Shown one piece after another: positions 24,019-33,117 of a stretch of 64,000 bases of DNA. Source of the stretch: Escherichia coli O127:H6 str. E2348/69 (GTDB lineage Bacteria > Pseudomonadota > Gammaproteobacteria > Enterobacterales > Enterobacteriaceae). A program made the position numbers and the translations under genes. The notes beneath the pieces are model-generated. The model was not told the DNA's origin and did no database searches. It worked only from the letters and a program-made list of their open reading frames with translations. Location of the stretch: assembly GCF_000026545.1 (NCBI RefSeq), contig NC_011601.1; one strand, given 5' to 3'. How positions within the stretch are numbered: the stretch's first letter is position 1; each line of letters opens with the position of its first letter.

Positions 24019-25312
24019 TTGTTTTAACCTCATGACAGATTTAAGGATGAACAAATCCCTGCCATTGCTGGCATATAAGAATGAAACCGGATATTTATTA
24101 CGGAACTGTTTTAAAGACCTGCCGGGATTTCGATATTATCCTGGTGAATAACTTTATCGACCGGGTAACAGTTACCGGGAATTTTCTGTTCGGTTGCTGC
24201 AGTCATACACTACTGCATTGTCCTGTGAACACTGACTGCAATATCAACTGGCTCTCCGGAAACAAGAAAAACTGTCAGAACAAGCACAAATGCTGAATTC
24301 ATTGTGCACATCCTTTTGGCATCAGACGTAAACGAGCCAGCATTGAAACAATGCATATTTTATTTAATAGCTCCCGTTCTTGTTTTCTCTTGTTAATGGC
24401 ATCTTCAGTAAATACTGGGTTACTGATAGTGACACCAATTTCAAAACAACCTTCAGACGTATTAACGTTTGGTAATAACGTTTTCATTATCGCGTCCTCA
24501 ACAATGAATTTTGTGATGCAGTGCCTGGTGCCTCCAGGTGACGTTAACCAGTTAACAATTAACGCCGGATACAGAGAATCCACCCATAACACTGTTTTTG
24601 GTTTTAACTGTTCCGCGTGCGCTCAGCCGCATTCACCACATCACAAAATTCACTTTAAAAAGGGCGGCAGAGCAGTCACGGAGTAAAACTGATACCGCCA
24701 AACGTCACCAGAAAATTGATAACAGAGGGCGTTGCAGCGGGGTTGTCACTTAAGCGTATGGTCAACCTGACAACCCGGTGTCCTCAACGGGGGAAGGAAT
24801 AACCCCGCCATACTTACCGCCGCGCCATTTCGCGGATTGCCACAACCGGAAGCGCACGGTCGACGAAAATTTAACGACAGGCTATCTATGAACCAGCTAC
24901 CTCGCCGTGCGCTTTCGCGTTATGGTCTGACTTTTCAGGGAAATATCCTTTCAGTAAACTGTCAGTGCCGGATGCTCACCCGTGTCCGGCGCACGCACTC
25001 CACCTCATCCGTGGAGAACTCCTTAATTACCAACCTTAGCTTCGTTGGTTAGCTATTAACGCGGGTATGTAATCATTCTGGCAATGCTTAATGTCGCTGC
25101 TTTTTCCAGATTAGTGATATCCTGCTCCAGAGCGGACAGATTTTCAGCCTGCTTAGCCCTGGCTTCATTGGCCCATTTCAGATCCTGCGCTGCATTAATT
25201 TTCTGGCGCATCCACTCATAAAGTTCATCATCGGTATAGTCTGGCGCGATGATGACGGGTTCTCGTTTCTGCATACTGATTCCTCGCGGTGCTGTTTCGC
25301 TTATCAGCCGTT

Positions 25313-25682
25313 AGATTTTGCCGAACTGGAAAGTGCCTGTTTAAATTCGCTGAAGCTGAGAGCTTCTTCGCCTTCGGCAAGACCTTCGAAGTATTCTTCG
25401 TAAGCCTTTTCCATGATTGTGTCGAAATCCATATCACCCACCTGAATTTCTTTCCAGCCAGCGACGCGCTCCAGATTCGGTTTTAAACGTTTTGCTTTTG
25501 GTATACGTCATCGCGGTGAACGTACCGTCCTGGTTGGGGAACACGCCACATACCAGAGATTCGCTGTTGCCAAGATCGATAGTATCCATGTTGACCTCAT
25601 TTCCCCTTAACGCCGGGGTAGCGGAACTGTTTGCTGAGAACACCGTGCGGTGTCTTGATGGATCGTAATTTAGTTTTCTCAT
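25313..25682 (-). pseudogene. Phage early-region ORF apparently split by a frameshift
   Basis: Two adjacent minus-strand reading frames (25434-25682 and one ending near 25313) read coherently only if a frameshift occurs near 25490-25510. Confidence 0.4.
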
Positions 25683-25780: not shown

Positions 25781-26188
25781 TTATTGATGTTTGTTACGTT
25801 TGCGAGCTTCTAGTAGCTCGGTGAATAGGCGATTAAAATTCTCAACGCGGGCACGGAGTTCGCTGATTTGTGCTTGCTGCTCTGATTTTGGAAGTGCGCG
25901 ATACAATCGCAACATCTCCAACTCATCTTCCGATAAGTCTAAGGCGCTGTTGAGTGCAACTGGTGGATCTGGTGTTTTATCCTCGTCACCAAACAGTATC
26001 CAAGTTGGTGAACATTGCAATACCTCAGCCAGGCGATGCAAATTTTGCCCGCGCGGGGCTGTATGGTCGCTTTCCCATAGTGAAATTGATGAGCCAGATA
26101 CGCCAGCAGCTTTGCTTAAATCGTTTTGACTTAAACCAACCTGTTTGCGTCTTTCTCTAATTCGTTGACCTAAAGTTTTCTCGTTCAT
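25781..26188 (-). CDS. Prophage repressor, XRE-family HTH (RacR/CI-like), no S24 peptidase domain
   Basis: 135 aa; N-terminal HTH (LGQRIRERRKQVGLSQNDLSKAAGVSGSSISLWE); divergent from the cro-like gene. Confidence 0.8.
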   Translation of the reverse strand: MNEKTLGQRIRERRKQVGLSQNDLSKAAGVSGSSISLWESDHTAPRGQNLHRLAEVLQCSPTWILFGDEDKTPDPPVALNSALDLSEDELEMLRLYRALPKSEQQAQISELRARVENFNRLFTELLEARKRNKHQ

Positions 26189-28494: not shown

Positions 28495-28526
28495 GTTGAG
28501 AAGTAATTTTTACCGGGAGGAAATTT

Positions 28527-28801
28527 ATGGAGACTGTTTTTGACGCACTGAAAGCAATGGGAAAAGCCACATCCATAGAACTTGCTGCGCGCGTGAAGAA
28601 GTGCTGAACGAACTATGGGAACTGAAAAAGGCTGGTTTTGTTGATAAAAGCGCGTACACCTGGCGTGTGGCTGATAACAACGTTCAGCAGGAACAGCCAG
28701 CGCAGGCAGAACTGCCGGAAGAAACCACCACAATGAGTGAAGTTATGCAGCGCATACTGGCATTTTATCAGGGAAATGTTCGATATTTTAGACGTTACTA
28801 G
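28527..28801 (+). pseudogene. Small phage ORF apparently interrupted by frameshift/stop
   Basis: ATG at 28527 gives [26 protein letters not shown] and the sense continues in another frame (ORF 28601-28801). Confidence 0.35.
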
Positions 28802-29240
28802 ATTAAAGAGCATTAGTTCAGATGTGAATTGACATTGTGTGGCACAGGGTTGGGCTAGCGTGGGGGTTTGCTTTGTGTAAGAAACGGATGCTCTGCAAAT
28901 TACTACTAATGCTTAATGTTAGTCTGATCTGCTCCCCGATGATTAATACACCGCTATGTTAGTAATGTCTGTAGATCGCTGTGTGTTGCATCCATCGGTT
29001 GACCCCACAGTCCAAACCAGACTGTCAGCTTTGATTCGATTCTATCTACTCAACCTGTCAGGTAATGTCTGAGCTAATACACAGAGTACGGCTATCGCGA
29101 ACTTTAAGCTAGGTATCTGATACGCACCGTTCACTTGGTCGTACTTCTTGCACTGACTAGCTATCGTGCGCAGTTATTTATAGGTAATCTCCAGTGTATA
29201 ATTTTCCAACTTATGGGAGATTGTAAAACAGGAGGAATAT

Positions 29241-30083
29241 ATGAGGAAAAAATCGTTTGGACGTTGCCCGTTTGATTTCGACGAAGATGTAAAAAAAATA
29301 GCCGCGATAAATAAATATATCCATGCGAAATTTGAGAGGCATAAAAATAAAATAGATAACCTAAAGGGGGTGGAACAAAAATTGATGGTTTTACATTACT
29401 TTAATGTACTGAATGAACTTAGTAATCAGGCTATATTTTCTTTGAGTACCGGAGCCTTTTCAGCATCGGAAGTATTAACTAGAGTTATAATGGAACAGGC
29501 TGCCAATCAATTTTATATAGCAATTGATGATGGAAAAAATGCACAAGCATTACTCAAGGGTAGTAAGAAATTAGTTCATAGTAATGGGAAACGGTGGCTG
29601 GAGTGTTTAAAATCCAAAGAAATGACTAATCCAGCAGCAGATGAAAGGATTCGTATCGGAAAAGAGCTAACTGATATGTTTAATAGATTGTGGCCAAATA
29701 CACCTGAATATCCTGGAACCAAAAAGCTTTTCGAAGTAATTGGCTGGGAAACACACTATCATGCCTATTACGTCCCTCTTTGTGATTCAATACATACATT
29801 CTCTGATGATATGGCAAATATAGTATCTCTATATAATGCAATCCAAAGCGATAAAACTACTGCTATCGAACTCACTCTTGCAGTTAAACAAGAAAATAAA
29901 CGGCTGGCAATTTATAATGTCGTAATTGCTATTGGCCTGCGGTGTGAGGCCTTAGTAAATGTATTTAACTCTTTAGGTTATCGAGATATTATAACTGAAA
30001 TGGCGCCAACAATAGATGCAGTCAACCAGATTATAATTCGATATGATGATTTCGAACATTCCAGAATTTTTTATTGTCAATAA
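29241..30083 (+). CDS. Uncharacterised 280-aa protein in AT-rich accessory island
   Basis: Clean ORF with RBS aggagg 8 nt upstream; visibly AT-rich codon usage; no motif I can assign. Confidence 0.7.
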   Translation: MRKKSFGRCPFDFDEDVKKIAAINKYIHAKFERHKNKIDNLKGVEQKLMVLHYFNVLNELSNQAIFSLSTGAFSASEVLTRVIMEQAANQFYIAIDDGKNAQALLKGSKKLVHSNGKRWLECLKSKEMTNPAADERIRIGKELTDMFNRLWPNTPEYPGTKKLFEVIGWETHYHAYYVPLCDSIHTFSDDMANIVSLYNAIQSDKTTAIELTLAVKQENKRLAIYNVVIAIGLRCEALVNVFNSLGYRDIITEMAPTIDAVNQIIIRYDDFEHSRIFYCQ

Positions 30084-30140: not shown

Positions 30141-30710
30141 TTGAGAGACAACCATACTCAAATCTTCCACATTGCAGGAGATTTGAGTATGAATACGTCA
30201 CCGAGGAACAAAGACAGTATCATAGGCCCAAAAAGACCACTTCAGATATCTCATATCTGGGGGCTCCAAATCCGGCTTGAACTGGAAGGTAAAACGCGTG
30301 ATTTAGCTCGGTTTCAAGCAGAGCTACGGTGCTGCAACTGAAAAACTGGCAGTCCTATCCAATTTGAGATAACCAAAGGGACAAGAGAAGCTGTTTCTGC
30401 ATTGATAAAGCTTGGCAATTTACGCAGTAAAGACTACTTGTTCCGATCTCGGGTCGGTACTAACCAACACATATCAATCCTGCAATATAACCGAATCTTT
30501 CATAGGAGGGAGAAAAGCTTGGTCTCGAAGATTCGCTTTACAGCACACATTCCATGAGAAGAACAAAACCTTGCCTTGTCTGCAAGAAAACTAAGAATCT
30601 CCGGGTGATCCAACTTCCGTTGGGCCATAAGAAAACGGAAAGCACAGTTCGTTATCTGGGTATAGAAGTTGATGATGCATTAGAGATCTCTGAATCGATC
30701 GAAGTCTAAA
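30141..30710 (+). pseudogene. Degraded tyrosine recombinase/integrase
   Basis: Three short frames with recombinase hallmarks: GPKRPLQISHIWGLQIRLELEGKTRDLA (N-terminal) and HSMRRTKPCLV...LPLGHKKTESTVRYLGIEVDDALEISE (box II His/Arg and catalytic Tyr region); interrupted by stops/frameshifts. Confidence 0.6.
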
Positions 30711-31121: not shown

Positions 31122-32495
31122 ATGAAAAGACTATATTATACCCATCATGATAGTCGAACCTTAAAACTTGCTATAGAAGGTGATGTTTCTGATAATGCGA
31201 ATATTTTTACAGTAATTGTAGGTAAAAATGGCGTTGGAAAAAGCAGATTGTTATCTCAGATTGCTAAAGACTGTATTCAAGATATTCATTTCTTGAAAAC
31301 TTTTAATCCATTATTTGACAGAGAAATAACACCAAAGTTAATTGCCGTATCTACCAGCCCATTCGATAAATTCCCTCCAGGGCGTAGGTCATTAAATCAC
31401 CAAAGGAAAGAAAATAATTATCGCTATGTGGGTATGCGTGGAGAAGGCCCCTTCGGCGTATCAAATGCCGTATCCCTTTTATCTTCAGCAGCGAGAGGTT
31501 GGCTAGAGAAACTTGCTTATTCAGAAAATCCTGCAAATTTACTCGATGTTTTTCATTCTATTGATTTTGAGCCCCATATAGAGTTTGTATTTAAACCAAC
31601 TTACAACGGACCGGACACTCCTGACTATAACTTCATTGGTGTATATTCAGATGAGATATTAACGGAAGTTAAGGAGTTATATTTAAAATACAATATAAAA
31701 ATTGACAGGAAGAATATTGAGAGTCTCTTAAAGTTAAACTCCGAATCACGTCATGATATTTACGAAGCACTGGTTGAAATTAATCGATTTGAACCTGAAC
31801 GTAGGGCTGTAACCTTGTCAGTCGATTTTACCAATGGTGAAACATTGGTTGGCTCGACTTATGCGAATAATTATTTTTCTAGATCAATTCTTAAACTTAT
31901 GAACGCTGGCTTCATGAGATTGATGGATATGCGACTCATAAAAAAAAGCTATGGTCCCATGTCACTTAAACGTGCGAGCTCGGGAGAACAATGTTTATTA
32001 GTGATGTTGCTTGGAATTGCAGGGCATATAACTGATGGTTCTATAATACTAATTGATGAACCGGAAATAAGCTTGCATCCTCGATGGCAGGAAGAGTTTA
32101 TCATTATGTTAACAAAAGCATTTTTAACTTACTCAGGTTGTCAATTCATAATTGCAACTCATTCACCACAAATAATATCCAATTTGCCGAATAAAGGTTG
32201 TTATATAACATCTTTGTCGAAAAGTTATCTTTATAAAGCAAAATACTTTAGCAACCGGTCTGCAGACTATCAACTTGCGGAACTATTTGATGCCCCTGGC
32301 ATTATGAATGAATACATTGCCAGATTAGCTTTCAATTTACTTTCAAAAGTTAAGACTGCTAAGTTAGTAACAGATGATAATTGGCGTGAATTAAAACAAC
32401 TCCAGCTTCTCCTTGAAAACGTTAATAGTAATGACCCTATTAATGAACTCGTAAATTCCGTATCTCAGGTGTGTGAAATTTATGCCAAAAATTAA
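31122..32495 (+). CDS. ABC/AAA_21-type ATPase, Septu PtuA-like
   Basis: Walker A VIVGKNGVGKSRLL; Walker B + D-loop IILIDEPEISLHP; H-loop IIATHSPQII; 457 aa; overlaps downstream HNH gene. Confidence 0.75.
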   Translation: MKRLYYTHHDSRTLKLAIEGDVSDNANIFTVIVGKNGVGKSRLLSQIAKDCIQDIHFLKTFNPLFDREITPKLIAVSTSPFDKFPPGRRSLNHQRKENNYRYVGMRGEGPFGVSNAVSLLSSAARGWLEKLAYSENPANLLDVFHSIDFEPHIEFVFKPTYNGPDTPDYNFIGVYSDEILTEVKELYLKYNIKIDRKNIESLLKLNSESRHDIYEALVEINRFEPERRAVTLSVDFTNGETLVGSTYANNYFSRSILKLMNAGFMRLMDMRLIKKSYGPMSLKRASSGEQCLLVMLLGIAGHITDGSIILIDEPEISLHPRWQEEFIIMLTKAFLTYSGCQFIIATHSPQIISNLPNKGCYITSLSKSYLYKAKYFSNRSADYQLAELFDAPGIMNEYIARLAFNLLSKVKTAKLVTDDNWRELKQLQLLLENVNSNDPINELVNSVSQVCEIYAKN

Positions 32496-33117
32496 AAATC
32501 CAATTAGATTCAGCGCAGAGTCATTAGATATTATTGAGAAAAAATTGTCTTCTCCAGATTTTAAGCATACCAACTGGGGAGATGATGATTTGCAAGTTCT
32601 CCGTGCAGAAATTAGAAATCATTACAGAGAAGAACAAAAGCTAGAATGTGTATATTGTCATGAGCCTATTGGGGTAAGAGCTGCACAAGCTGCTCCTATA
32701 GAGCATATTGTGCCAAAATCTCAATATCTATGTTTTATTTTTGAACCTAAGAATCTATGTGTAGTATGTCCTGACTGCAATGAATTCAAAGGTAAAAATG
32801 AAGTGTTATTTGAACCCGTAATAAATGGGGGGCGGCGCAAAAACTATCCAACTGCATCTGCATCATTTCGCATCGTTCATCCACATATAGATGATTATGA
32901 GATGCATATTATAAAAGCAAATCGTGTTTATGTGGACAAAACACCTAAAGGGCACTATACCATTGGAATATGTAAACTAAATAGATTTTTTCATTATTTT
33001 GGGATGTGTGATGAATTTGTTAATGATGCAAAAATTGCTGAGGCAAATGAAAATTTTTTCAAAAAAGGTAGTATTACTACTAATGAATTATTGGATGATG
33101 ACATTCATTTGATTTAA
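32473..33117 (+). CDS. HNH endonuclease, Septu PtuB-like
   Basis: HNH/zinc motif CVYCHEP...IEHIVPKS...CVVCPDCNEFKGKN; 214 aa; start overlaps ATPase gene end by 23 nt. Confidence 0.75.
   Translation: MKFMPKIKNPIRFSAESLDIIEKKLSSPDFKHTNWGDDDLQVLRAEIRNHYREEQKLECVYCHEPIGVRAAQAAPIEHIVPKSQYLCFIFEPKNLCVVCPDCNEFKGKNEVLFEPVINGGRRKNYPTASASFRIVHPHIDDYEMHIIKANRVYVDKTPKGHYTIGICKLNRFFHYFGMCDEFVNDAKIAEANENFFKKGSITTNELLDDDIHLI

What the first reader, a model, noticed from the sequence alone, without database searches (positions are those of the whole stretch)
25313..25682. Apparent frameshifts in small early-region genes
Two small genes (25313-25682 minus strand; 28527-28801 plus strand) each read as a single sensible protein only across a frame change. 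This could be mutational decay consistent with the defective state of the prophage, programmed frameshifting, or sequencing error in homopolymer tracts.
Basis: seen in the sequence. Interest (0 to 1): 0.3.

Follow-up and report, generated by a model that had tools for sequence, protein, structure and literature searches.

The report
Two known small genes; one pseudogene
The flagged "frameshift" at 25313-25682 is just the boundary between two well-known, separately translated small prophage genes (ydfA and ydfB), whereas the second site (28527-28801) is a genuinely broken, truncated gene remnant; both are ordinary and already annotated.

Summary
The window is the defective lambdoid prophage of E. 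coli E2348/69, between potB and potC.

**Site 1 (25304-25682, minus strand) is not a frameshift.** It is ydfA (DUF1391, 51 aa, 25434-25589) followed by ydfB (42 aa, 25304-25432). These are the first genes of the known ydfABC-dicF-dicB operon.
- The junction reads stop TGA, one base, then ATG, with a strong Shine-Dalgarno sequence inside the end of ydfA.
- All 81 related loci keep this layout. About 3,200 complete E. coli genomes carry the same 286-nt unit, called as two genes in every listed row.
- Each gene also occurs without the other. DUF1391 stands alone in Rac and BL21-type prophages; ydfB stands alone in Citrobacter and Cronobacter prophages.
- The last sense codon of ydfA is a non-slippery GAG in 62 of 81 loci, which argues against programmed frameshifting.

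**Site 2 (28527-28801, plus strand) is a real pseudogene.** A DUF1627 gene carries a 13-bp deletion, not a homopolymer error. It is also truncated at about codon 70 and joined in frame to the last 22 codons of a DUF977 gene. Fifteen other complete genomes have the identical sequence, so it is inherited decay and not a sequencing error. PGAP already marks it "frameshifted; incomplete".

Verdict: ordinary and already known.

The parts
25434..25589 (-). ydfA, a DUF1391 family protein of 51 aa; its stop codon TGA is at 25434-25436.
   Evidence: PGAP annotation of the identical E2348/69 sequence. Pfam PF07151 at 95 bits against a cutoff of 27.3. phrog_751. pN/pS 0.15 over 46 haplotypes. Shine-Dalgarno match of -8.1 kcal/mol before ATG 25589.
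25590..25682 (-). It is most likely the untranslated leader of the operon, not coding sequence.
   Evidence: No Shine-Dalgarno match at ATG 25682 (-0.1 kcal/mol). The open length upstream of the ydfA ATG varies from 0 to 134 codons among loci, including a 1-nt indel variant. The Pfam domain begins only at residue 33 of the 82-aa ORF. Family members have unrelated N-terminal extensions or none.
25437..25443 (-). Shine-Dalgarno sequence for ydfB (AGGTGGG), lying inside the last codons of ydfA and ending 4 nt before the ydfB ATG.
   Evidence: Duplex with the 16S rRNA 3' end is -9.9 kcal/mol, in the top ~1.8% of 20-nt windows in the region. Sequence.
25304..25432 (-). ydfB, a 42-aa acidic two-helix protein; ATG at 25430-25432, one base after the ydfA stop.
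   Evidence: PGAP annotation. The exact sequence is on 1000 or more contigs and is named YdfB. phrog_2061 at E 1.3e-27. pN/pS is 0.38 in its own frame and 1.00 in the ydfA frame. 42-aa homologues starting at the same Met occur in Salmonella, Citrobacter and Cronobacter. AF2 model with two helices, pLDDT 84.
25056..25274 (-). ydfC, 72 aa, the third gene of the operon.
   Evidence: PGAP annotation; phrog_1744 at E 2.7e-39.
24662..24713 (-). DicF small RNA, downstream in the same operon.
   Evidence: Rfam RF00039 at 76.7 bits against a gathering score of 48.
25781..26188 (-). DicA-like (CI-type) helix-turn-helix repressor, immediately upstream of the operon.
   Evidence: ORF; PGAP 'helix-turn-helix domain-containing protein'.
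28527..28732 (+). 5' remnant of a DUF1627-family gene (ydaW-like, at the lambda ren position). It covers about 70 of 244 codons and lacks the DUF1627 domain itself.
   Evidence: PGAP pseudogene 28527-28729, 'frameshifted; incomplete; missing C-terminus'. Alignments to the intact 244-aa homologue and to K-12 ydaW. PF07789 covers residues 84-236 of the intact protein.
28591..28592 (+). Site of the 13-bp deletion (ACTTGATATCAGT, flanked by CG on both sides). It shifts the frame and creates the stop at 28605-28607.
   Evidence: Alignments A1 and A3. K-12 ydaW has otherwise near-identical flanks and retains the 13 bp.
28733..28801 (+). The last ~22 codons and native stop of a DUF977 gene, joined in frame to the DUF1627 remnant by a deletion. 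The breakpoint lies between 28731 and 28735.
   Evidence: Alignment to the WP7-S17 DUF977 gene. Megablast match begins at 28733-28735. The C-terminal peptide [21 protein letters not shown] compares with [21 protein letters not shown].

Best explanation
Site 1 is the boundary between two independent, adjacent cistrons, ydfA (DUF1391, 51 aa) and ydfB (42 aa). They open the leftward early operon ydfA-ydfB-ydfC-dicF-dicB-ydfD of a Qin/DicBF-type lambdoid prophage. Ribosomes terminate at the ydfA TGA. ydfB is then translated from its own ATG one base downstream, using a strong Shine-Dalgarno sequence (AGGTGGG) embedded in the last ydfA codons. This close stop/start spacing is typical of translationally coupled phage genes. 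The coupling itself is inferred; the gene structure is shown. No frameshift, decay or error is involved.

Site 2 is a dead remnant of a DUF1627-family gene (the ydaW type, downstream of replication gene P). It has two lesions. A 13-bp deletion inside the N-terminal winged-helix region shifts the frame. A deletion of roughly 0.9 kb removes the whole DUF1627 domain and most of the neighbouring DUF977 gene. This is ordinary mutational decay in a prophage that is defective in many other places.
For: Site 1:
- The window matches the E2348/69 chromosome at 100% over both segments compared (601 nt and 401 nt). There PGAP calls ydfA, ydfB and ydfC as three separate intact genes.
- 3,224 of 5,426 complete E. 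coli genomes carry at least 80% of the 286-nt ydfA-ydfB unit. Matches have unchanged length, and every listed row has two gene calls.
- All 81 loci with a full-length ungapped match keep stop + 1 nt + ATG. The stop varies TGA/TAA, and the last sense codon is GAG in 62 loci and GGG in 19.
- pN/pS is 0.15 for ydfA. For ydfB it is 0.38 in its own frame and 1.00 in the ydfA frame. The ydfA region read in the ydfB frame gives about 14.
- Shine-Dalgarno pairing is -9.9 kcal/mol before the ydfB ATG and -8.1 before the ydfA ATG.
- DUF1391 occurs without ydfB. Rac ydaF is followed by the convergent gene sieB. In BL21-type prophages it is followed after 11 nt by an unrelated 121-aa gene.
- 60 diverse DUF1391 proteins all end within a few to about 40 residues after the conserved C-terminal helix, and none has a YdfB-like tail.
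- ydfB occurs without ydfA. In Citrobacter and Cronobacter prophages it is the first gene, directly behind the same leader and Shine-Dalgarno sequence.
- Sequenced phages (Tritos, PhiR42_1 and others) have the same two-gene layout.
- The literature treats ydfA, ydfB and ydfC as separate small genes and notes a strain that lacks only ydfB (PMC5069750).

Site 2:
- Alignments show the 13-bp deletion and the junction to the DUF977 3' end.
- PGAP labels it 'frameshifted; incomplete'.
- Fourteen further complete genomes from varied sources are 100% identical and one is 99.8% identical.
- One strain carries only the frameshift and another only the truncation.
- The intact homologue is 244 aa and has PF07789.
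Against: - No expression data were available here for ydfA or ydfB, so translation initiation at the ydfB ATG and the coupling are inferred from sequence and conservation.
- ydfB is under only moderate constraint (pN/pS 0.38), and 7 of 46 haplotypes lack the standard 42-aa form.
- A few database proteins do span both genes (P0001-P0007). One is a literature-derived 93-aa 'ORF 1' with no contig behind it. One (P0002) carries an in-frame deletion across the junction. The other five are rare variants in which an upstream frameshift runs the ydfA frame into the ydfB frame.
- In this window's allele the last ydfA codon is GGG followed by TGA. In principle this could allow some +1 slippage.
Confidence: 0.93

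Rival explanations
1. Site 1 is a single ancestral gene of about 93 aa, split by a frameshift mutation as part of prophage decay.
For: Seven database proteins cover both halves. The prophage is defective elsewhere.
Against: The spanning proteins are a literature-only record without a contig, one in-frame junction deletion (P0002), and rare variants in which the ydfA C-terminus is replaced by out-of-frame sequence. The stop + 1 nt + ATG junction is invariant in 81 loci and present in about 3,200 genomes. It is also present in sequenced phages. Each half exists alone in other prophages. DUF1391 proteins from 60 diverse clusters end where ydfA ends.
Confidence: 0.02
2. Programmed +1 ribosomal frameshifting at GGG-UGA (prfB-like: stop codon in the A site, Shine-Dalgarno-like element upstream) makes a YdfA-YdfB fusion.
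For: ydfB is in the +1 frame. In this allele the P-site codon is GGG before UGA, and an SD-like AGGUGG lies just upstream.
Against: In 62 of 81 loci the P-site codon is GAG, which cannot re-pair in the +1 frame, and the stop is sometimes TAA. The SD-like element overlaps the shift codon instead of lying 3 nt upstream as in prfB (established knowledge, not tested here). ydfB has its own ATG, conserved as the N-terminus across genera. It is a free-standing first gene in Citrobacter and Cronobacter. ydfA homologues function without any downstream +1 ORF.
Confidence: 0.02
3. One or both frame changes are sequencing or assembly errors, such as a homopolymer miscall.
For: None specific. A GGG run sits at the site 1 junction.
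Against: Site 1: an identical junction in 19 viral-contig loci and in independent genome assemblies. No error is needed to explain two intact genes. Site 2: the lesion is a 13-bp deletion of mixed sequence, not a homopolymer. It is identical in 15 other complete genomes from humans, giant panda, chicken, cucumber, seawater and a rabbit farm.
Confidence: 0.01

Closest known systems
ydfA-ydfB-ydfC-dicF-dicB-ydfD (dicBF) operon of the Qin cryptic prophage, E. coli K-12
   Same: Same gene order, and the same DicA-like repressor and DicC-like Cro-type regulator upstream. DicF is present (Rfam 76.7 bits). YdfB is identical in sequence to the K-12-derived YdfB part of P0001, and YdfA is 94-96% identical (PMC5069750).
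   Different: YdfA ends in ...SGG instead of ...SGE (GGG instead of GAG as the last codon). ydfD here has an internal stop. The replication module is O/P-type.
ydaF (DUF1391) of the Rac prophage, E. coli K-12
   Same: A 51-aa DUF1391 protein, 84-88% identical in its core, located in the early-left region next to the repressor.
   Different: It is preceded by the unrelated ydaG and followed by the convergent gene sieB, with no ydfB homologue. This shows that DUF1391 is a self-contained gene.
ydaW pseudogene (DUF1627 fragment) of the Rac prophage, E. coli K-12
   Same: The same gene family, with nearly the same 5' sequence (about 92% identity over the matched stretch). Both are annotated as C-terminally truncated pseudogenes downstream of the replication genes.
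   Different: K-12 ydaW keeps the 13 bp and is cut at a different point (453 nt retained). The window copy has the extra 13-bp frameshifting deletion and is fused to a DUF977 tail.
prfB (RF2) programmed +1 frameshift site
   Same: A superficial resemblance only: a stop codon after the candidate shift codon, a +1 downstream frame, and an SD-like element nearby.
   Different: There is no conserved slippery codon and the SD spacing is wrong. The downstream frame has its own start codon and exists as an independent gene. It does not work like prfB.

Membership tests
DUF1391 / YdfA-YdaF family (PF07151) | Match to the Pfam model above the gathering score, over the whole ~48-residue domain. | tested here: met
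   95-97 bits against a cutoff of 27.3, profile positions 1-48 of 48.
DUF1391 / YdfA-YdaF family (PF07151) | A stand-alone small protein (~50-60 aa) that ends shortly after the conserved GAxRWL helix. | tested here: met
   51 aa. The 60-sequence alignment shows the same end point. The AF2 model has 4 strands plus a C-terminal helix, pLDDT 84.
YdfB (phrog_2061; UniProt YDFB_ECOLI) | Sequence identity or profile match over the full 42 aa, starting at the same Met. | tested here: met
   The exact sequence is found under the name YdfB on 1000 or more contigs. phrog_2061 at E 1.3e-27. Homologues in four genera begin at the same MD(F).
dicBF operon (Qin-type early-left operon) | Gene order repressor - ydfA - ydfB - ydfC - DicF RNA - dicB - ydfD on one strand. 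| tested here: met
   PGAP table and the Rfam DicF hit at 24662-24713. ydfD is a pseudogene here.
Translationally coupled adjacent cistrons | The stop of the upstream gene lies within a few nt of the downstream start, with a Shine-Dalgarno sequence inside the upstream coding sequence. | tested here: met
   TGA-t-ATG. SD pairing of -9.9 kcal/mol. The junction is invariant in 81 loci.
Translationally coupled adjacent cistrons | Downstream translation depends on upstream translation. | not testable with these tools
   Needs reporter fusions with an upstream premature stop.
Programmed +1 ribosomal frameshift (prfB-like) | A conserved slippery P-site codon able to re-pair in the +1 frame. | tested here: not met
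   GAG in 62 of 81 loci and GGG in 19.
Programmed +1 ribosomal frameshift (prfB-like) | The downstream frame lacks an independent initiation site, and the two parts always occur together. | tested here: not met
   ydfB has an ATG and SD. ydfB occurs alone in Citrobacter and Cronobacter, and DUF1391 occurs alone in Rac and BL21 types.
Frameshifted pseudogene (site 1) | An indel relative to intact homologues that interrupts one reading frame. | tested here: not met
   No length difference from homologues: 286-nt ungapped matches. Both ORFs are intact.
Frameshifted pseudogene (site 2, DUF1627 family) | An indel, not a multiple of 3, relative to intact homologues, causing a premature stop. | tested here: met
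   A 13-bp deletion compared with the intact 244-aa gene and with K-12 ydaW. Stop at 28605-28607.
DUF1627 family (PF07789) | Presence of the DUF1627 domain. | tested here: not met
   The domain lies at residues 84-236 of the intact protein. The window fragments give no Pfam hit and the region is deleted. What remains is only the N-terminal remnant of such a gene.

The most novel reading that the evidence does not exclude
YdfA (DUF1391) and YdfB are independently shuffled early-operon modules with an anti-defence or host-takeover role. The DUF1391 domain also occurs embedded in 440-935-aa proteins next to DarA_N or ArdC_N anti-restriction domains. YdfB is a strongly acidic two-helix peptide with net charge about -7. 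A minor alternative is that the GGG-TGA allele in this window permits a low level of +1 read-through into ydfB.
Probability: 0.2. Interest if true: 0.4.

Novelty: already known. Interest (0 to 1): 0.07.

Why it matters
It matters little for discovery. ydfA, ydfB and ydfC are catalogued K-12 y-genes, and the DUF1627 remnant is already flagged as a pseudogene by the standard annotation pipeline.

The useful outcome is a clean negative. A stop-1nt-start junction between two very small phage genes can look like a frameshift to a reader working from sequence alone. A literature-derived 93-aa 'ORF 1' record that joins the two genes also exists.

One mild by-product is that DUF1391 appears as a domain of DarA_N/ArdC_N polyvalent proteins, and ydfA and ydfB are separable modules. 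This gives a testable hint about the function of two long-uncharacterised E. coli prophage proteins.

Tried and rejected
- **Programmed +1 frameshift at GGG-TGA.** Rejected: the slippery codon is not conserved, ydfB has its own start, and the genes are separable.
- **Sequencing error.** Rejected for both sites by identical sequence in many independent genomes.
- **The 82-aa ORF starting at 25682 as the true ydfA.** Rejected.
- **YdfA as an integrase-arm / AP2-like DNA-binding fold.** This was a guess from the motif 'SKTFKT..GA.RWL'. Foldseek against the PDB gave nothing better than E = 0.96, and lambda Int ranked 44th with probability 0.06. A sequence search of solved structures gave only chance hits at E >= 0.22. 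Not supported.
- **YdfB as a single EF-hand-like helix-loop-helix.** This was a guess from '..ALSFSEF..'. There was no Pfam hit even at E <= 10 and no meaningful Foldseek hit. Not supported.
- **Promoter scan.** The consensus scan found no sigma-70 site on the minus strand between the repressor gene and ydfA, so the operon promoter was not located.
- **Origin of the 93-aa 'ORF 1'.** I tried to read the 1988 and 1994 dicB/dicF papers (PMC338298, PMC205167). They are not held. Attribution of P0001 to that work rests on my own recollection.
- **Function from the literature.** Searches for ydfA, ydfB, DUF1391 and DUF1627 gave no functional data beyond screen lists.
- **NCBIfam.** No model matched YdfA or YdfB.

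Full report
**Context**

Megablast places the window in the E. coli E2348/69 chromosome at 100% identity over both segments compared: 601 nt around site 1 and 401 nt around site 2. The region is a lambdoid prophage between potB and potC.

Around the finding, NCBI's PGAP annotation of that identical sequence lists the following, in window orientation from right to left on the minus strand:
- a DicA-like helix-turn-helix repressor (25781-26188)
- ydfA, a DUF1391 protein (25434-25589)
- ydfB (25304-25432)
- ydfC (25056-25274)
- dicB (24299-24487)
- ydfD, with an internal stop (24111-24302)
- an exonuclease, an excisionase and an integrase

Rfam finds DicF RNA at 24662-24713 on the minus strand, at 76.7 bits against a gathering score of 48. 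[quoted passage not shown]

On the plus strand the annotation lists a DicC/Cro-like gene, a YdaT-like gene, an O-like (DnaT-like) replication gene and replication gene P. It then lists a DUF1627 pseudogene at 28527-28729, labelled "frameshifted; incomplete; missing C-terminus".

**Site 1: checking the observation**

The six-frame ORF list shows an 82-aa ORF at 25434-25682 and a 45-aa GTG-started ORF at 25304-25441, both on the minus strand. The minus-strand sequence at the boundary is ...AGA AAT TCA GGT GGG TGA t ATG GAT TTC GAC.... So there are two coding stretches in different frames, with ydfB in the +1 frame relative to ydfA.

What separates them is a stop codon, one base and an ATG. It is not an indel inside a gene.

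- The DUF1391 domain begins at residue 33 of the 82-aa ORF.
- The ATG at 25589 is preceded by a Shine-Dalgarno match of -8.1 kcal/mol to the 16S rRNA 3' end, whereas ATG 25682 has none at -0.1.
- Among related loci the in-frame open stretch upstream of the ydfA ATG ranges from 0 to 134 codons and includes a 1-nt indel variant. The sequence TTAAGGGGAAATGAGGTCA(G/A)CATG is conserved.

**Site 1: are these naturally two genes?**

Several independent lines say yes.

1. *Frequency.* 3,224 of 5,426 complete E. coli genomes carry at least 80% of the 286-nt ydfA-ydfB unit. Full-length matches have unchanged length, and every listed row has separate "DUF1391 family protein" and "protein YdfB" calls.

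2. *Junction conservation.* In 81 loci with a full-length ungapped match (mostly IMG/VR viral contigs, plus the window), the layout is always stop + 1 nt + ATG. The stop is TGA in 78 loci and TAA in 3. The last sense codon is GAG in 62 and GGG in 19. Interchange of two stop codons is what selection for a stop predicts.

3. *Selection.* Over 46 haplotypes, pN/pS is 0.15 for ydfA. For ydfB it is 0.38 in its own frame but 1.00 when the same bases are read in the ydfA frame. The ydfA region read in the ydfB frame gives about 14, so the ydfB frame is not coding upstream of its ATG.

4. *Initiation signal.* The 20 nt before the ydfB ATG pair with the anti-Shine-Dalgarno sequence at -9.9 kcal/mol. 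This is in the top ~1.8% of windows in the region and is the strongest of the starts tested.

5. *Separability, the decisive test.*
   - DUF1391 occurs without ydfB. Rac ydaF (51 aa) is preceded by the unrelated ydaG and followed by the convergent gene sieB. In BL21(DE3)-type prophages a 50-aa DUF1391 gene is followed after 11 nt by an unrelated 121-aa gene.
   - An exhaustive HMMER search found 207 clusters (at 50% identity) of DUF1391 relatives. In an alignment of 60 of the short ones, all end within a few to about 40 residues after the conserved GAxRWL helix, with no YdfB-like extension.
   - ydfB occurs without ydfA. 42-aa YdfB homologues (71-86% identity) exist in Salmonella, Citrobacter and Cronobacter. 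In the Citrobacter and Cronobacter prophages the ydfB homologue is the first gene after the repressor. It sits directly behind the same leader and Shine-Dalgarno motif that precedes ydfA in E. coli, with no DUF1391 gene in any frame.
   - The literature also notes a Qin-like prophage that lacks only ydfB (PMC5069750).

6. *Not a symptom of decay.* Sequenced phages (Tritos, PhiR42_1, vB_EcoM-606R7 and others) have the same two adjacent genes. PHROGs files them in different families, phrog_751 and phrog_2061.

**Site 1: the proteins that span both genes**

A search with an artificial YdfA+YdfB concatenation returned seven proteins covering both halves.

P0001 (93 aa, "ORF 1") is an exact concatenation of K-12 YdfA and YdfB. 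It comes only from the PRF literature database and has no contig behind it. I believe it derives from the original dicB-operon sequencing of 1988-1990, but I could not read those papers.

P0002 has an in-frame deletion across the junction. The other five (P0003-P0007) are mostly single-member clusters, although P0003 was seen on 20 contigs. In them the YdfA C-terminus is replaced by the out-of-frame peptide ...VAGWKE(T/I)QVSD before MDFD. These are upstream frameshift variants that run into the ydfB frame. None represents a conserved fusion.

**Site 1: programmed frameshifting**

In this window's allele the last ydfA codon is GGG, followed by UGA, with an SD-like AGGUGG just upstream and ydfB in the +1 frame. 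That superficially recalls prfB.

The resemblance fails on testing:
- The P-site codon is GAG in three quarters of loci and cannot re-pair in the +1 frame.
- The SD-like element overlaps the codon instead of lying 3 nt upstream. The prfB spacing requirement is established knowledge and was not tested here.
- ydfB has its own conserved Met start.
- Both partners function as independent genes elsewhere.

I put this reading at about 2%.

**Site 1: mechanism and function**

The structure shown is two cistrons with a stop-1nt-start junction and an internal Shine-Dalgarno sequence. From this I infer that ydfB is translated by ribosomes initiating, or re-initiating, at 25432, probably coupled to ydfA translation.

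The biochemical function of both proteins is unknown.
- AF2 models are confident for such small proteins. YdfA has four strands plus a C-terminal helix (pLDDT 84). YdfB has two helices (pLDDT 84).
- Neither model has a significant PDB fold match.
- Sequence search against solved structures found nothing for YdfA (YdfB was not queried), and Pfam gave no further family for either protein.

One lead emerged. The DUF1391 domain is embedded in 440-935-aa proteins together with DarA_N, or with ArdC_N plus DUF3560. That is the architecture of anti-restriction "polyvalent" proteins. Together with the position at the head of the early-left operon, this suggests a host-takeover or anti-defence role. This is guilt by association only.

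**Site 2: what is there**

ORF 28527-28607 encodes [29 protein letters not shown] 28601-28801 continues in another frame as [17 protein letters not shown]....

The intact homologue in strain 2015C-3107 is 244 aa. It has an N-terminal winged-helix-like region and the DUF1627 domain at residues 84-236.

Alignment shows that the window lacks 13 bp (ACTTGATATCAGT, flanked by CG on both sides) between 28591 and 28592. K-12 ydaW is nearly identical in the flanks and retains them. This is a mixed-sequence deletion, not a homopolymer slip.

Homology to DUF1627 genes then stops at about 28731. From 28733-28735 the sequence matches the last ~67 nt, and the downstream flank, of a DUF977 gene. That gene normally lies after the DUF1627 gene. 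The join is in frame, so the 66-aa ORF ends at the DUF977 native stop. Its tail [21 protein letters not shown] compares with [21 protein letters not shown] in the reference.

The remnant therefore lacks the family-defining domain entirely.

Fourteen other complete genomes from humans, giant panda, chicken, cucumber, seawater and a rabbit farm are 100% identical over 28500-28900, and one more is 99.8% identical. This excludes sequencing error.

Strain Z1322HEC0010 has the 13-bp deletion in an otherwise full-length gene. Strain Z1323PEC0010 has the truncation without the 13-bp deletion. The two lesions are therefore independent events that are combined in this lineage.

Immediately downstream lies a foreign block:
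- a DUF5677 gene
- a decayed integrase
- a PtuA/PtuB (Septu-type) defence pair, with PADLOC E-values of 1.9e-165 and 1.1e-83
- an IS481-family element

It is plausible that the acquisition of this block removed the rest of the DUF1627 and DUF977 genes. That is an inference.

The prophage is defective elsewhere as well. The portal gene is followed by fused fragments of the S49 peptidase and NlpC/P60 genes, several IS elements are present, and ydfD has an internal stop.

**Comparison with known systems, and verdict**

Site 1 is a member of the K-12 Qin dicBF operon family in every feature tested. It is not a frameshift of any kind.

Site 2 is a further-decayed counterpart of the K-12 Rac ydaW pseudogene.

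Both are already annotated as such in RefSeq. Interest is low. The only mildly new observations are incidental: the modular independence of ydfA and ydfB, and the presence of DUF1391 in polyvalent anti-restriction proteins.

Noticed in passing
window 25434-25589; proteins P0187, P0197, P0204, P0206, P0213, P0215, P0226: The DUF1391 (YdfA) domain also occurs inside 440-935-aa proteins, next to DarA_N (defence against restriction) or ArdC_N plus DUF3560 domains. This is a polyvalent anti-restriction architecture and a possible clue to YdfA function.
   Followed up: partly
L094-L097 (Citrobacter, Cronobacter prophages), positions 1470-1629: YdfB homologues are the first gene of the early-left operon, with no DUF1391 gene upstream. 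They sit behind the same leader and Shine-Dalgarno motif (CCGGCGTTAA...GAGG...ATG) that precedes ydfA in E. coli. ydfA therefore looks like an insertable module between the leader and ydfB.
   Followed up: partly
window 31122-33117 (+): An AAA ATPase (457 aa) and an overlapping HNH endonuclease (211 aa) match PtuA and PtuB of the Septu defence system (PADLOC E 1.9e-165 and 1.1e-83). They lie in a foreign block with DUF5677 (29241-30083) and a decayed integrase (about 30189-30709), right after the truncated DUF1627/DUF977 remnant.
   Followed up: partly
window 24111-24302 (-): ydfD, the lysis protein gene at the end of the dicBF operon, is annotated as a pseudogene with an internal stop in this prophage.
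   Followed up: no
window 24662-24713 (-): A full-length DicF small RNA gene (Rfam 76.7 bits) lies between ydfC and dicB.
   Followed up: yes
protein P0001 (93 aa, 'ORF 1 [Escherichia coli]'): A literature-derived (PRF) record is an exact YdfA+YdfB concatenation with no supporting contig. It is probably an early sequencing or annotation reading of the same junction as one ORF. The source papers could not be read.
   Followed up: partly
L090 1870-2445; L007, L017, L019 and others: In some prophages the first 34 residues of YdfB continue into a 191-aa low-complexity ORF (phrog_35040), and ydfC is absent. This is probably a deletion or recombination variant downstream of ydfB.
   Followed up: no
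window ~37000-61000 (L093 3494-25862): The prophage is clearly defective. The portal gene is followed directly by fused fragments of the S49 peptidase and NlpC/P60 genes, so most head and tail genes are missing. IS200C, ISEc13 and IS481-family elements are inserted. The region also carries tRNA-Arg and tRNA-Ile genes and an IraM-like gene.
   Followed up: no
L092 (strain Z1322HEC0010) and L091 (strain Z1323PEC0010): The 13-bp frameshifting deletion and the large truncation of the DUF1627 gene occur separately in other strains and together in the window lineage. This implies two independent events, or recombination between the alleles.
   Followed up: yes
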